64,000 bases of DNA from Octopus sinensis. Taxonomy: Eukaryota. The notes below the pieces were generated by a model. The model made no database searches and was not told where the DNA came from. It worked only from the letters and a program-made list of their open reading frames with translations. The position numbers and the translations under genes were made by a program. The stretch spans positions 53,456,464-53,520,463 of the forward strand of contig NC_043011.1 in NCBI RefSeq assembly GCF_006345805.1, read 5' to 3'. Below, one piece after another: positions 17,985-61,744 of the stretch. Position 1 is the first letter of the stretch. The number at the start of each line of letters is the position of its first letter.

Positions 17985-18305
17985 AAGGTTCATGGCTTAG
18001 TGGTTAGGGCATTTGGCTTATGATTGTAAGGTCGTGAGTTCAATTCCTGGTAACACTCTGTGCCCTTGAGCAAGACACTTTATTTTAGGTTGCTCCAGTT
18101 CATTCAGCTGGCAAAAACAAGTAGTACACATACTTCAAAGTGCCAGCCTTGTCACAATCTGTGTCACACTGAATCTCCCTGAGAACTATGTTAAGAGTAC
18201 ACTTGTCTGTGGAATGCTCAGCCACTTGCATGTTAATTTCACAAGAAGATTGTTCCGATGATCGAATCAACTAGAACTCAAGTCATCATAAGCGATGGAG
18301 TGCCA
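17985..18305 (+). mobile_element. SINE family D
   Basis: tRNA head TGGCTTAGTGG / GAGTTCAATTCC; CCTTGAGCAAGACACTT core; CCTTGTCACA...GGAGTGCCA tail. Relatives at 20243-20600+, 31200-31535+, 31660-31975-. Confidence 0.8.
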
Positions 18306-22935: not shown

Positions 22936-22961
22936 ATATCATGTCAGTTTCAATATATGGT

Positions 22962-23267
22962 AAATACAGTTCTATATTTAAGAGATGAGGAATTGTGTAC
23001 ATTATTTACATTATGCCCATGGGCATATGGCGTAGTGGCTAAGAGTGTGGGTTACTAACCCCAAGATTCTGAGTTCAATTCCAGGCAGTGACTTGAATAA
23101 TAATGATAATAATAATAACATCGAAAAATACCTTAGGAATGAGAACCCAGGTTTGAAATTTCCCTAAGACACCTGAAGAAGGCTGGAGGGTATATCAGCC
23201 GAAACATTGTTTGACAACAAACAAGATGAGGACAAATATCCGTCGAATGTAAATAATGTAAATAATG
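22962..23267 (+). mobile_element. Family C SINE with inverted tail copy
   Basis: Inverted tail 22965-23011; junction palindrome ATGCCCATGGGCAT; tRNA head; hammerhead 23168-23212; TSD TCAATATATGGT (22950-22961) / TCAATATAGGGT (23268-23279). Confidence 0.85.
23168..23212 (+). ncRNA. Minimal type-I hammerhead ribozyme motif (family C)
   Basis: GACAC CTGAAGA A GGCTG-GAGGGTATAT-CAGCC GAAAC ATT GTTT: conserved CUGANGA and GAAA boxes with a perfect 5-bp stem II. Confidence 0.7.
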
Positions 23268-23516
23268 TCAATATAGGGTGTTCCAATTGTTCAATCAATG
23301 AAGCTATTTTAATTAAAAAAAAAATTTGTTGTTGTTTTGAAGTATAAATGACTGAATGTATGATAGACACTACTTGCACGCTTAAATATTATAGTCAGGC
23401 AGACTCAGAGTAGTCGTTACATTAACCCTAGTACTTCACTGGTACTCTGTTTTATTTATTTTATTTATTCTCCCCAGAAGGAGATGCTCTAGCTATTCTG
23501 CCAGCTAACCACCTTG

Positions 23517-55458: not shown

Positions 55459-55527
55459 CGTCACTGCTTGGAATTGAACTCGGAATCTTGTGGTTAGTAG
55501 CCCATGGTCTTAACCACTACCTGAATC

Positions 55528-55558
<31 letters not shown>

Positions 55559-56073
55559 CATCGAAAAATACCTTAGGAATGAGAACCCAGGTTTGAAATT
55601 TCTCCAAGACACCTGATGAAGGCTGGAGGGTATATCAACCGAAACATTGTGTTAATAACAAAGAAGTTGAGGACAAATATCTGTCAATTGTACATAATGT
55701 ATATAATGTACATAATTCCTCATATCTTCAATAAAAGCCCATGGGCATATGGTGTAGTGGTTAAGAGTACGGGCTACTAGTCCCAAGATTTCAAGTTTGA
55801 TTCCAGGCAGTGACCTGAATAATAACGACAATAATAATAACAACAACAACATTGAAAAATACTTTAGTAGCCCATGCTATTAACCACTACACCATATGCC
55901 CATCGAAAAATACCTTAGGAATAAGAACCCAGGTTCGAAATATCCCCAAGACTCCTGATGAAGGCTGGAGGGTATATCAGGCGAAACATTGTGTTAACAA
56001 CAAACAAGATGAGGAAATATATCTGTCAGATGTAAATAATGTGCATAATTCCTCATCTCTTAAATATAGAACT
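55459..56073 (+). mobile_element. Family C complex partial-tandem locus with two hammerheads
   Basis: Inverted head piece, body with hammerhead (55608-55653, CTGATGA core), head 55741-55820, inverted head piece, body with hammerhead (55950-55995), full tail. Confidence 0.8.
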
Positions 56074-56127
56074 AGATTAGTAGTAGTTGTTAGATTTGGT
56101 GTGTATATATATATATATATATTATAT

Positions 56128-57400: not shown

Positions 57401-57589
57401 ATGTCTTCACATCTATATGTTCTGGGTAGTTTTTAGAATTAGTACCAAGGACATTGTTATTATTGGTTATAACTTAACTTCCAAATCAAATCATCTCCGA
57501 CCAAGCAAGTTTATGATCAAATGTATTCTAACCATGACCATACTGCATGTATTTTCAAACAATGGTCCACATTTTCCAATGCATACTCT

Positions 57590-57888
57590 CTCTTTTTACT
57601 CTTTTACTTGTTTCAGTCATTTGACTGCGGCCATGCTGGAGCATCGGTTGTCAAGCAATGCTAGGGGGACAAACACAGACACACACACACACACACGCAT
57701 ATATATATATATATATACATATATACGACGGGCTTCTTTTCAGTTTCCGTCTACCAAATCCACTCACAAGGCTTTGGTCGGCCCGAGGCTATAGAAGAAG
57801 ACACTTGCCCAAGGTGCCACGCAGTGGGACTGAACCCAGGACCATGTGGTTGGTAAACAAGCTACTTACCACACAGCCACTCCTGTGC
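57590..57888 (-). mobile_element. SINE A with internal deletion
   Basis: Tail joined at the AGCA(C/T)CG microhomology, removing about 110 bp. Confidence 0.88.
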
Positions 57889-58987
57889 ATCCTTCTATTT
57901 GGAATAAATTATATTTCGTTGCTATTTCTAGTAGATTATGTGACTGTATGGATCATCCCTCAATGGCTTATAATCACAGAGAGACTCTGCTGTTGACTCA
58001 AAGGTAAAAGAAATCCGATGAAGTATTTTTAGTGAGGACTTAAGGTTCATAGCAGTATCTGGAGAATCATTTGAGGAAACTTCACTTTGAGTAGGAGACA
58101 ATAAATCTTAAACTGAAATTGGTTATATTAAGGTCTGTCTATCACACGAGGATCCAGTTTTGAATAGGTATTTTAGCAGTGATATTGGATTCAACTGGTG
58201 GCACAAGGCCAGCAATTTCGGTGGAGGAGCTAAATTGACCCCAATCCTCAACTGGCACTTCTTTTATCAACTCCAAAAGGATGACAAGCGAGGTCGATCC
58301 TGGCAGTATTTGAACCCAGAATGTAAAGATGGATGAAACGTTGCTAAACGTTTTGCCCAGTGTGCTAATGGTTCTGTCAGATTGCCATCTTATTTTTAGC
58401 AGTCATATTAATGCCAAGGTTTTATTTTATCATTCATATTGTTATAAATGGAGGTAAGAAGTTGATTGGCAGATGGGGGTGTTTAGTAGAGTATTGGACT
58501 AATTCCTTATTTGATTATATTCATCATCATCATCATCATCGTTTAGCATCCGCTTTCCATGCTAGCATAGGTTGGACGGTTCAACTGGGAGCTGGGAAGC
58601 CAGAAGGCTGCACCAGGCCCAGTTTGATCTGGCAATGTTTCTACGGCTGGATGCCCTTCCTAACGCCAACCACTCCATGAGTGTAGTATATTCCATATGG
58701 TATTTAATAACATTCGTTTATGTTCTGTGTTCAAATCTTGCTGGGCCAACTTTGATTCACGTCCTTAATAAAATTTATACCTGTCATATACTGGGATCAC
58801 TTTGATTTATTAAATCTCCTCCGCTACAAATATGTGGTCTTGTGCCAATCTAGAATGCTATTTGGATTAACAAAATCATTGACGTAACAGAAAAAATTAC
58901 ACTCGGTCCTTCCTACCCAGAATATTGACATTCTGGGATTCCCCCCACTCTGTTCATATCTTTCCTACATTCTCTGACTTGCAAGGA

Positions 58988-59627
58988 CCCTTTAACATCT
59001 AAACCAGCCATACATAGCCCAAATATTCTACCTGTTTCTATGCTCTGACTGTCCACATCCAGACTCTCACACCTGCCCTACAATACCATTCTAAAAATGA
59101 ATATTCATATCATCAAAGCGATAAGATAAGGTATGATTAATTAAAAATAATGTGAATAAATAACTCTCTTTCTCTCTTTTCTCTCTTTTACTTGTTTCAG
59201 TCATTTGACTGTGGCCATGCTGGAGCACCGCCTTTGGTCGAGCAAATCGACCCCGGGACTTATTCTTTGTAAGCCCAGTACTTATTCTATCGGTCTCTTT
59301 TGCCGAACCGCTAAGTGACGGGGACGTAAACACACCAGCACCGGTTGTCAAGCAATGCTAGAGGGACAAACACAGACACACAAACATATACACACACATA
59401 CATATATATATACATATACATACGACAGGCTTCTTTCAGTTTCTGTCTCCCAAATCCACTCACAAGGCTTTGGTCGGCCCGAGGCTATAGCAGAAGACAC
59501 TTGCCCAAGATGCCACGCAGTGGGACTGAACCCGGAACCATGTGGTTGGTTAGCAAGCTACTTACCACACAGCCACTCCTGCGCCTATTACTATTACATT
59601 TGACTGAGTAATCTGAATGCTAAAGGG
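58988..59627. mobile_element. piggyBac-type MITE (family of 15532-15759, inverted) interrupted by a young SINE A (-, 59165-59586)
   Basis: Ends CCCTTTAACATCT / GAATGCTAAAGGG; internal similarity to the 15532 element. Confidence 0.75.
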
Positions 59628-59807
59628 TTTAGCAGAATCAGTTTCTCTGATCAACATCATCAATTTCACTGATTGATTGGAGTAAGTAGAAGAAACAAAA
59701 AATGCTTTGTATTTAGTCACAGCTCTTTATGCTCTGAGTTGATAAAATAAGTTACAATTAGTTATGTTTTCATGGTAGCCTGGACACAAAGAAGGACACT
59801 GCATGTA

Positions 59808-60553
59808 CAGTCGTGGCCAAAAGTTTGGAACATAGGTTTGAAAATTAGAATTTTTACACTAAATGCCCAAAGTTGTATTTAATTTGCAATATTGCTTGCT
59901 GACCAACCACATGGTTCCAGGTTCAGTCCCATTGCGTGGCGCCTTGGGCAAGTATCTTCTACTATAGCCTCGAGCCAACCAAAGCCTTGTGAGTGGATTT
60001 GGTAGACAGAAACTGAAAGAAGCCCATCGTATATATATATGTATATATATGTATGTGTGTGTGTTTATGTTTGTGTGTATGTTTGTCTCCCCAACATCGC
60101 TTGACAACTGATGCTGATGTGTTTACATCCCCGTAACTTAGCAGTTCGGCAAAAAGGAATAAGTACTAGGCTTACGAAGAATAAGTCCTGGGATTGATCT
60201 GCTCAACTAAAGGTGGTGCTCCAGCATGGCCACAGTCAAATGACTGAAACAAGTGAAAGAGTAAAAGAGAGTAAAGAGTATATCTTATTACTTGACCAAA
60301 AGTTTGGAACATAGGTCTGAAAATTTTTTCTTCCATTTATAACTGTTTTACCATATTAGTATCAGTTGGATAGATATACAAATTCAGAGATTTGCATAAA
60401 ATGTTGCAGTAGCTATGGTATAAAACTGAATATGTTCCTGCCGGCAATGGTTCAATCTAAGGGAGAGGTGGTATCTCTATGTCCACCATTACATTTATTA
60501 CATTTAATGCGTCTAGTATTTGTATGTATGTATGTATGTGTATGAGAGAGAGC

Positions 60554-60607
<54 letters not shown>

Positions 60608-60760: not shown

Positions 60761-61744
60761 ATTAGGGTAATGCTCATTAACAACAGTCATATGATGCTAA
60801 CATAAGGTGACACCAAATACACACATATATATTGTTATTTATAACACCTAGAAGAAAATGCTTCTTTTGCACTCACCAAAGTCAATGCAGCTTTGGTCAG
60901 GAGGAATTTGACACCATCAGACGGTATCCAATGATTGTCAATTGTTTCAACCCTGAACTGTAACACCATTCAGAGTCAAAACACAAAGAGACACAAAACA
61001 CACACACATATACACATATAGTACAATGGAGTGATTCTCAAACTTTTTCAGCCTACTGCCCCACTGGCACCCATGCCACATTCCTTGTGCCCCTGCACCA
61101 ACTCACCACCACAAATATGGACCGCTTTCTGCACCAAATTCAAAACCAACTGTATTTCAAAAATAAAACTTTACCTAATTAACCCATTATTTTGTTCAAT
61201 GCCCACCCTGTTGGATCCACTTTGGAACCCACTAGTATAATGTATGTATATTGTTGTTCATAAGTAAACAATAAAGTACTTTGTACATGGTTGTGGTAGA
61301 AATTTTAGGGTTCATTAAATTTTTGTTTAGTGCTAAATGTGTGATTAATTCCATCCAAACCATAGATTTTTAACCGGGTATCCAAATGTGCATGAGAAGA
61401 AGTATGTCTGCTAATTCTTAATACTGTTTCACATCCTCTGAACATTGTGGATTTCCACTTTGACAAATGCATGAAGCCTAATATGGTCTTAAATCTATGT
61501 AGCTGCTCTCTCTCTCTCTCTCTAGCTCTCTCTCATACACATACATACATACATACAAATACTAGACGCATTAAATGTAATAAATGTGATGGTGGACAGA
61601 GAGATACCACCTCTCCCTTAGATTGAACCATTGCCGGCAGGAACATATTCAGTTTTATACCATAGCTACTGCAACATTTTATGCAAATCTCTGAATTTGT
61701 ATATCTATCCAACTGATACTAATATGGTAAAACAGTTATAAATG
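60334..61744. repeat. Near-identical inverted repeat of about 280-310 bp (60334-60647 / 61466-61744)
   Basis: Arms differ by a handful of substitutions and (GA)n length. Confidence 0.95.
61029..61234. mobile_element. hAT MITE
   Basis: TIRs GAGTGATTCTCAAA / TTTGGAACCCACTA; TSD GTACAATG / GTATAATG. Confidence 0.7.

What the first reader, a model, noticed from the sequence alone, without database searches (positions are those of the whole stretch)
22950..23279. Stereotyped inverted-tail insertion geometry of family C, bounded by TSDs
Seen: at three independent loci an inverted copy of the extreme 3' tail (about 50-110 bp) is fused to the SINE head, and the composite sits inside 12-13 bp TSDs (2209-2221/2589-2601; 22950-22961/23268-23279; 36287-36298/36698-36709). 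The terminal CCTCATCTCTTAAATATAGAACTGTA occurs only in the inverted piece; the full SINE stops short at (AATAATGTA)n. Sequence is duplicated between the two parts, unlike L1 twin priming, where parts do not overlap. Established: inverted truncated pLTRs and a unique 3' tail extension are Penelope hallmarks. Inference: single-event integration by a Penelope-type mechanism.
Basis: partly seen in the sequence, partly recalled or inferred. Interest (0 to 1): 0.8.

Follow-up and report, generated by a model that had tools for sequence, protein, structure and literature searches.

The report
Penelope retrotransposon disguised as a SINE
These repeats are not a separate SINE but the end pieces of a protein-coding Penelope retrotransposon that carries a tRNA-derived segment and a hammerhead ribozyme motif; its back-to-back copies were likely inserted in one step from both cut DNA strands, and the tRNA segment may serve as its promoter.

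Summary
The three inverted composites and their 12-13 bp target duplications (TSDs) are real. "Family C" is not a free SINE. It is the pseudo-LTR of an autonomous Penelope/Poseidon-type element with a 2.5-kb unit: the tRNA-like head follows the RT-endonuclease ORF stop in 30 of 30 endonuclease-selected loci, and the ORF starts inside the repeat. Of 65 inverted pairs, 52 have exactly one tailed end and 39 have TSDs, against 3 of 260 mismatched flanks. This geometry is a published Penelope hallmark. What I did not find in print: the pseudo-LTR begins with a tRNA-derived A/B-box segment; most copies end 5' within about 10 nt of tRNA +1; the sense strand lacks TTTT (1 of 80 relatives does); short and ORF-bearing copies share haplotypes. 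Best reading: both target nicks primed at two internal start sites (likely), on an RNA that may be made by Pol III (unshown, about 0.4). New variant of a known kind.

The parts
22950..22961 (+). left target-site duplication (11 of 12 identical to 23268-23279)
   Evidence: control
22964..23013 (-). inverted, 5'-truncated arm ending at the long (tailed) end; this sequence is ORF codons ~38-55 of the parent element
   Evidence: frame (L190, L202)
23014..23093 (+). tRNA-derived head (+1 at 23021; A box 23028-23038; B box about 23073-23081) with the -7 palindromic edge where most copies begin
   Evidence: sequence; tRNA profile; 5' ends
23097..23119 (+). (AAT)n microsatellite spacer
23139..23268 (+). 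start of the Penelope ORF inside the pseudo-LTR (ATG at 23139; stop at codon 6 in this copy), ending at the short end after the 9-nt repeats
   Evidence: translation; open in L190; aligns to the N-terminus of homolog P0001
23168..23213 (+). minimal type I hammerhead motif (CTGAAGA, 6-bp stem II, GAAAC, palindromic stem III decayed at CpG in this copy)
   Evidence: same motif with other stems in 20 of 80 related loci; not hit by Rfam
23268..23279 (+). right target-site duplication
2209..2601 (.). second composite: TSD 2209-2221 / 2589-2601, tailed inverted arm 2222-2329 (-), main arm 2326-2590 (+); inserted into an older repeat whose paralogs lack the insert
36287..36709 (.). third composite: TSD 36287-36298 / 36698-36709, main arm 36295-36595 (-), tailed arm 36590-36699 (+)
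55460..56079 (.). fourth, complex locus: two forward pseudo-LTR copies with tail sequence plus short inverted head pieces

Best explanation
Family C is the pseudo-LTR of an autonomous Penelope/Poseidon-type retrotransposon, and each inverted composite is likely one insertion in which both staggered target nicks primed reverse transcription, one at each of two start sites 35 nt apart. Shown: the unit is ORF (RT + endonuclease), stop, 22-nt spacer, tRNA-derived head, (AAT)n, ORF start with hammerhead motif, short end, tail, ORF. Shown: pairs carry one short and one long end inside 9-17 bp TSDs, and single-arm copies rarely have TSDs. Inferred: the two cDNAs are joined at their truncation points by microhomology or by the palindrome at the head's edge, and some insertions used two different templates. 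Inferred, weaker (about 0.4): the tRNA A/B boxes drive Pol III transcription from about -7 through a TTTT-free unit. Priming at the RNA's 5'-proximal tail would then give the abundant 250-bp SINE-like copies, and priming at the distal tail the ORF-bearing copies.
For: Head directly after the ORF stop in 30 of 30 endonuclease-selected loci, the query's own locus among them. ORF opens in the repeat and runs through the tail (L190, 391 aa); L191 is pLTR-ORF-pLTR, unit 2,498 nt. RVT_1 E 3e-10; 42% to an Anolis PLE ORF over the RT and 30%, E 1e-24, over the endonuclease. One long + one short end in 52 of 65 pairs, two long 1, two short 3, unclassified 9; 6 of 6 in a position-ordered sample. TSD 39/65 vs 3/260; single-arm 3/32 vs 2/96. 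Tail 17-mer 6,898 exact matches vs 121 for a 17-mer 25 nt further on. In 23 pairs the smaller arm has the tail, so each arm holds sequence the other lacks. 4 of 24 TSD-bearing pairs differ at a master-level A/T variant, background 44/3,242. PAc cuts both strands, is predicted dimeric and starts at two internal sites that bound the tail (PMC11167929). For the Pol III step.
Against: No intact ORF was seen; the longest stop-free frame is 432 aa. Pfam did not call GIY-YIG on the endonuclease piece. Rfam called neither tRNA nor hammerhead. 26 of 65 pairs have no scored TSD. Inverted pairs are not the majority in unselected samples: 2 of 9 random events and 6 of 27 A-box loci with both 3' ends. For Pol III: there is no start-site data; the codon-shuffle P for zero TTTT is only 0.02-0.04; GGGG is also absent and close homologs are Phe-poor; palindromes at pLTR 5' ends occur in PLEs without tRNA heads (PMC3846280); 7 of 30 unbiased arms run past the wall; an uncapped RNA is a poor mRNA (established knowledge).
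Confidence: 0.8

Rival explanations
1. A separate tRNA-derived SINE lineage arose from the pseudo-LTR and is mobilised in trans by the Penelope protein.
For: Head-bearing arms outnumber ORF-linked arms about 7-fold: 5,265 vs 1,082 exact matches, calibrated by 23/46 and 34/46. 5' ends pile at the tRNA edge. Short arms look slightly younger, 3.2% vs 4.8% divergence.
Against: No diagnostic substitution separates 83 short from 50 ORF-linked arms, and the same three haplotypes occur at 34/23/17 vs 21/12/6. The age gap is confounded because short arms were picked by similarity. Short copies lack ORF sequence past the tail, which PAc needs on its template.
Confidence: 0.12
2. Inverted arms come from fold-back self-priming of one cDNA (or an antisense template) at palindromes, and the 5' wall is that palindrome, not a transcription start; the promoter is Pol II and the tRNA piece is a passenger.
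For: 17 of 79 arms in head-to-head joints end at -7, the edge of the palindrome. Arms of a pair are more alike than chance, 43 of 53 vs 56% expected. Self-priming is the published proposal (PMC3846280), and D. virilis Penelope has a LINE-like internal promoter (PMC2377424 abstract).
Against: Copying one arm from the other cannot put the tail on the smaller arm (23 pairs) or give arms of different haplotype. The wall persists in arms not joined to a head: 37 of the 46 that reach +10 stop within -10..+10.
Confidence: 0.3
3. The composites are two successive insertions, the second targeted to the 5' end of the first.
For: Some pairs have arms of different haplotype. PLEs tend to insert beside earlier copies (PMC6765202 passage).
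Against: One TSD encloses both arms. Independent ends would give about half like-ended pairs, against 4 of 56 seen. Paralogous sites lack both arms.
Confidence: 0.04

Closest known systems
Penelope/Poseidon PLEs: PAc of Anolis carolinensis (PMC11167929; parts 1-2 of 4 read) and Pen2a_Av of Adineta vaga (PMC3846280; passages)
   Same: Single RT + C-terminal endonuclease ORF; pLTR overlaps the ORF start; hammerhead near the start codon; inverted 5'-truncated pLTR; 30-40 nt tail on one end only; TSD around the whole insert (8-10 bp in Adineta, 9-17 here).
   Different: Here the pLTR starts with a tRNA-derived A/B-box segment, copies pile up at that edge, and the sense strand lacks TTTT. The Adineta pLTR has a putative TATA/Inr promoter.
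TRIMp3 elements Cassandra, Helenus, Ajax (PMC10886601; passages)
   Same: Small-RNA-derived Pol III promoter motifs inside the terminal repeat of a retrotransposon; proposed origin by insertion of a SINE into that repeat.
   Different: Those are non-coding LTR elements of 0.3-1.3 kb, and the paper argues that their autonomous partners must use Pol II. This element is a 2.5-kb protein-coding PLE.
Schistosome Sm-alpha / Sj-alpha SINE-like hammerhead repeats (review PMC6765202; passages)
   Same: Pol III-type promoter plus hammerhead in a short repeat.
   Different: Described as non-coding and often tandem; here the same layout is continuous with a coding PLE and shows the PLE tail and inversion.
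Animal non-LTR retrozymes (bioRxiv 10.64898/2026.07.22.740005; part 1 of 5 and passages)
   Same: Short hammerhead-bearing repeats related to PLE pLTRs.
   Different: Defined there as tandem arrays; the text has no tRNA, Pol III or octopus mention. Family C is mostly dispersed single or inverted arms.
L1 twin priming (recalled, no call)
   Same: Both target strands prime cDNA, giving an inverted 5' part inside a TSD.
   Different: L1 parts do not overlap; here both arms start at the 3' end, 35 nt apart, and can come from different templates.
Octopus SINEs OK, OR1, OR2 (Ohshima and Okada 1994; seen only as a citation; tRNA origins recalled)
   Same: tRNA-derived heads in what looks like an octopus genome.
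   Different: Sequences not available to me; I cannot exclude that family C was once filed under one of these names.

Membership tests
Penelope/Poseidon EN+ PLE | PLE-type RT in a single ORF | tested here: met
   RVT_1; 150 homologs, the listed ones carrying PF26215/PF28514, 42% to an Anolis ORF. No tree was built, so the clade rests on similarity.
Penelope/Poseidon EN+ PLE | C-terminal GIY-YIG endonuclease | tested here: met
   VYSIPCSCG..Y.GET motif; 30%, E 1e-24 to the Anolis C-terminus; Pfam PF01541 not hit
Penelope/Poseidon EN+ PLE | pLTR in partial tandem, overlapping the ORF start | tested here: met
   L191, L190, L202
Penelope/Poseidon EN+ PLE | Minimal type I hammerhead in the pLTR | tested here: met
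   Motif and stems; the core's free position 7 is A or T; cleavage itself untested, and no clear pile of 5' ends at the cut site
Penelope/Poseidon EN+ PLE | Inverted 5'-truncated copy with a 30-40 nt tail at one end | tested here: met
   52 of 65 pairs; ends at ORF +131 and +165
tRNA-derived SINE | tRNA-related head with A and B boxes | tested here: met
   13 of 17 heads score 6.2-16.4 bits on a profile of 27 tRNAs from this genome, shuffles max 3.1 of 1,020; Rfam RF00005 not hit; isotype not assigned
tRNA-derived SINE | Non-autonomous lineage distinct from its partner, head at the element's own 5' end | tested here: not met
   Head is inside the coding element; no lineage-specific changes
tRNA-derived SINE | Transcribed by Pol III | not testable with these tools
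   Only indirect signs; the RNA runs laid were unstranded and showed no start
tRNA-derived SINE | LINE-type simple-repeat or poly(A) 3' tail | tested here: not met
   The 9-nt repeats are in-frame ORF codons and the ends are two fixed sites
TRIMp3 (Cassandra/Helenus/Ajax) | Two LTRs with PBS and PPT, no ORF | tested here: not met
   The element has a long ORF and PLE ends; PBS and PPT were not searched

The most novel reading that the evidence does not exclude
An autonomous, protein-coding retrotransposon whose 2.5-kb genomic RNA is made by RNA polymerase III from a captured tRNA promoter, kept free of TTTT terminators through its whole ORF, and which sheds over ten thousand SINE-like copies from its own 5' end. 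It would be a living intermediate between a coding retroelement and a SINE, on the Penelope side.
Probability: 0.35. Interest if true: 0.85.

Novelty: new variant of a known kind. Interest (0 to 1): 0.58.

Why it matters
The flagged geometry is known, but PLE integration is still unresolved (PMC8557442 and PMC11167929 say so), and this family offers thousands of insertions to test it. The counts here tie the TSD to two-arm insertions, put one start site on each arm, and show arms from different templates, which fits a two-strand, two-template reaction better than fold-back. It also shows that a tRNA-headed 250-bp repeat can be a PLE pseudo-LTR, which bears on SINE annotation in genomes with many unclassified SINE families (893 of 900 recent ones in PMC13282606). 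If Pol III drives the coding element, it contradicts the stated expectation that autonomous partners must use Pol II (PMC10886601).

Tried and rejected
Rfam scans found no tRNA or hammerhead family at the copies. The Pfam GIY-YIG genome search returned other PLE families and not this one in the 30 loci fetched; the parent was found from locus L017 instead. tRNA isotype: best local scores go to Arg(TCT) but by small margins over Lys, Thr and Cys; not assigned. Hammerhead cleavage as a source of 5' ends: 5 of 62 arms start within -1..+4 of the cut, and the best 6-nt window holds 7 against 6 elsewhere; inconclusive. Expression: no RNA holder listed; three raw RNA runs of a same-label species and one contig set were laid on L191. 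Reads were unstranded, 70-74% of those laid ran on into unlike sequence, and no start was called at the head, so this is no evidence on the promoter. A second Poseidon family in this genome as a TTTT control was not found: all 30 fetched hits to P0001 were this family. Target-template microhomology of >=1 nt was seen at 24 of 36 long and 26 of 32 short ends (16 more ends unparsed), but no control was run, so it is not used. True orthologous empty alleles: no relatives held. Earlier scan findings: none. Ten paper searches listed no tRNA-headed PLE; Repbase, Dfam, subscription papers and supplements were not seen, and the O. vulgaris repeat library (supplement of PMC13282606) may hold this family.

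Full report
OBSERVATION. The three loci are as described: TSDs at 2209-2221/2589-2601 (12 of 13 identical), 22950-22961/23268-23279 (11 of 12) and 36287-36298/36698-36709 (12 of 12), each enclosing a main arm and an inverted piece of about 108, 51 and 107 bp. A fourth locus at 55460-56079 has tail sequence on forward, head-bearing copies, so the tail is not confined to inverted pieces even in the window. The window lies in a 2.72-Gb assembly. That it is an octopus is my inference from size and repeat landscape; no call shows it.

WHAT FAMILY C IS. In locus L017 the sequence upstream of the head encodes the end of a Penelope endonuclease. A search with that coding DNA gave 30 loci, L017's own among them; all 30 have the head right after the ORF stop, 22 nt before the -7 edge (alignment). 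On the other side the ORF opens inside the repeat: L190 reads 391 codons from the ATG in the middle of the repeat through the hammerhead, the 9-nt repeats and the tail into the N-terminal domain, 49% identical to homolog P0001 from its N-terminus on. L191 is pLTR-ORF-pLTR with a 2,498-nt unit. The RT hits RVT_1 at E 3e-10 and is 42% identical to an Anolis ORF; the endonuclease piece aligns to that protein at 30%, E 1e-24, though Pfam did not call GIY-YIG on it. A minimal type I hammerhead motif sits in the repeat, with core position 7 varying A/T (43/85 of the arms aligned), and the same motif with other stems occurs in 20 of 80 related loci from metagenomes. Rfam missed it. No intact ORF was seen.

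GEOMETRY. Profile mapping gave 142 events: 93 from loci chosen by similarity to the repeat core, 34 endonuclease-selected, 9 from 600 kb taken at fixed positions, 2 from neighbouring stretches and 4 in the window. 65 are head-to-head inverted pairs with both 3' ends, 61 single-strand and 16 complex or at a locus edge. Of the 65, 52 have one long and one short end, 1 two long, 3 two short, 9 unclassified. TSD score >=9 occurs in 39 of 65 against 3 of 260 mismatched flanks; lengths 9-17, median 13. The tail is on the smaller arm in 23, the larger in 18, similar arms in 11. Core selection favours two-arm loci: only 2 of 9 random events and 6 of 27 position-ordered A-box loci were complete pairs, though all 6 were long+short and 3 had TSDs; 8 of 27 long ORF-bearing loci were pairs, 4 with TSDs over 2.0-3.0 kb. 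Single-arm events with a mapped 3' end rarely have TSDs: 3 of 32 against 2 of 96, and one of the three hides a short inverted tail. Genome-wide the tail 17-mer has 6,898 exact matches and a 17-mer 25 nt further into the ORF has 121.

MECHANISM OF THE PAIRS. PAc cuts both strands, is predicted to be a dimer and starts reverse transcription at two internal sites that bound the tail (PMC11167929). Here the ends lie at ORF +131 and +165; the short end falls in the loop of a predicted stem whose 3' strand is in the tail (z -2.0, one copy). Fold-back of one cDNA, the published proposal (PMC3846280), cannot give the 23 pairs where the smaller arm has the tail the larger lacks. Arms agree at the A/T variant in 43 of 53 pairs against 56% expected, yet 4 of 24 TSD-bearing pairs differ, against a background of 44 in 3,242 columns. 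I infer priming from both nicks, often on the same or a sister RNA and sometimes on different templates (two RNAs, or the two pLTRs of one RNA). Gene conversion and master timing could inflate the concordance.

THE tRNA HEAD. A profile of 27 tRNAs from this genome scores 13 of 17 ORF-linked heads at 6.2-16.4 bits; 4 give no score and 1,020 shuffles reach 3.1. By eye the invariant positions and both boxes are kept and the stems are decayed; Rfam gives no tRNA hit. 5' ends pile here: of 109 head-bearing arms 19 start at -7, 12 at +1, 9 at +4, and 5 pass -20 (mostly core-selected). In 30 position-ordered arms 7 reach -40 or beyond and 23 stop between -22 and +6. Among 58 arms not joined to another head, 37 of the 46 that reach +10 stop within -10..+10. 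Exact matches are 5,265 for the A box and 1,082 for the spacer 30 nt upstream, about 10,500 and 1,460 after calibration. Short and ORF-linked arms share haplotypes, 34/23/17 and 21/12/6, with no diagnostic change beyond an alignment-edge artefact and two nominal P values of 0.01-0.03. None of 60 related loci with downstream DNA has a tRNA-like segment there (best 4.0 bits).

TERMINATORS. Column majority over 2,428 positions has no run of four T on the sense strand; copies hold 0.35 per kb (28 in 78,934 nt, some loci counted twice) against 3.4-4.9 in full ORFs of two other PLE families of this genome. In 80 related loci, some near-duplicates, the median is 3.2 per kb and 1 has none. Against: codon shuffles give P 0.019 and 0.037, GGGG is also absent, and the closest homologs are Phe-poor too. 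This is compatible with Pol III read-through and does not show it. RNA runs gave no start site.

KNOWN AND NEW. Inverted truncated pLTRs, a one-sided 30-40 nt tail and enclosing TSDs are described for PLEs (PMC3846280, PMC8557442; passages). Short non-autonomous Penelope elements and PLE-derived retrozymes are also in print. tRNA or 5S promoters in terminal repeats are known for non-coding LTR elements (PMC10886601), and Pol III plus hammerhead for schistosome repeats (PMC6765202). Ten searches listed no coding PLE with a tRNA-derived pLTR head; Repbase, Dfam, the 1994 octopus SINE paper and all supplements were not seen. Other papers opened: PMC13282606, PMC4758252, PMC8869645 and 10.1101/596502 (passages), PMC2377424 (abstract).

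VERDICT. It is a Penelope/Poseidon-type element (about 0.97) and not a SINE lineage. One-step insertion primed from both strands is likely (about 0.75). Pol III transcription of the coding unit is open (about 0.35-0.4). New variant of a known kind; interest 0.58.

Noticed in passing
window 10033-10430 (+), 59155-59590 (-), 632-1126 (-), 3258-3647, 37606-38003: A second abundant ~400-bp repeat with a tRNA-like head and a short tandem A-rich tail; inverted or tail-to-tail pairs at 10747-11208 and 57583-60289.
   Followed up: no
window 24644-23508 (-): Two open frames resembling a Tc1/mariner transposase (motif recalled, no family search run).
   Followed up: no
window 44239 (-): Another minimal type I hammerhead motif in unrelated sequence, perhaps from a second PLE.
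   Followed up: no
window 60334-60572 and 61506-61744: Near-perfect 239-bp inverted repeat, 99% identical.
   Followed up: no
window 31973-31911 (-), 17992-18052, 31215-31267, 33664-33720: Four tRNA-like segments scoring higher than family C heads on the local tRNA profile.
   Followed up: no
L016 600-1330; L024 800-1420: LINE 3' pieces (R4/Dong-like by my recall) sit in or before the (AAT)n of the pLTR; L016's ends in TGAA(TAA)n like the head, hinting that the head arrived as a LINE-mobilised tRNA copy.
   Followed up: no
L081-L087, L090: A young PLE family with intact-looking 780-aa RT/GIY-YIG frames preceded by a separate ~480-aa frame; no hammerhead found by my scan.
   Followed up: partly
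L181-L184 (also L322-L324): The same near-full-length insertion with flanks is held on C1 and three unplaced contigs at 98-99% identity: duplication or uncollapsed haplotypes.
   Followed up: no
L023 1596-1660; window 23224-23232: Predicted 9-10 bp stem between the sequence before the 9-nt repeats and the tail; the encoded residues on both strands are kept in homolog P0001.
   Followed up: partly
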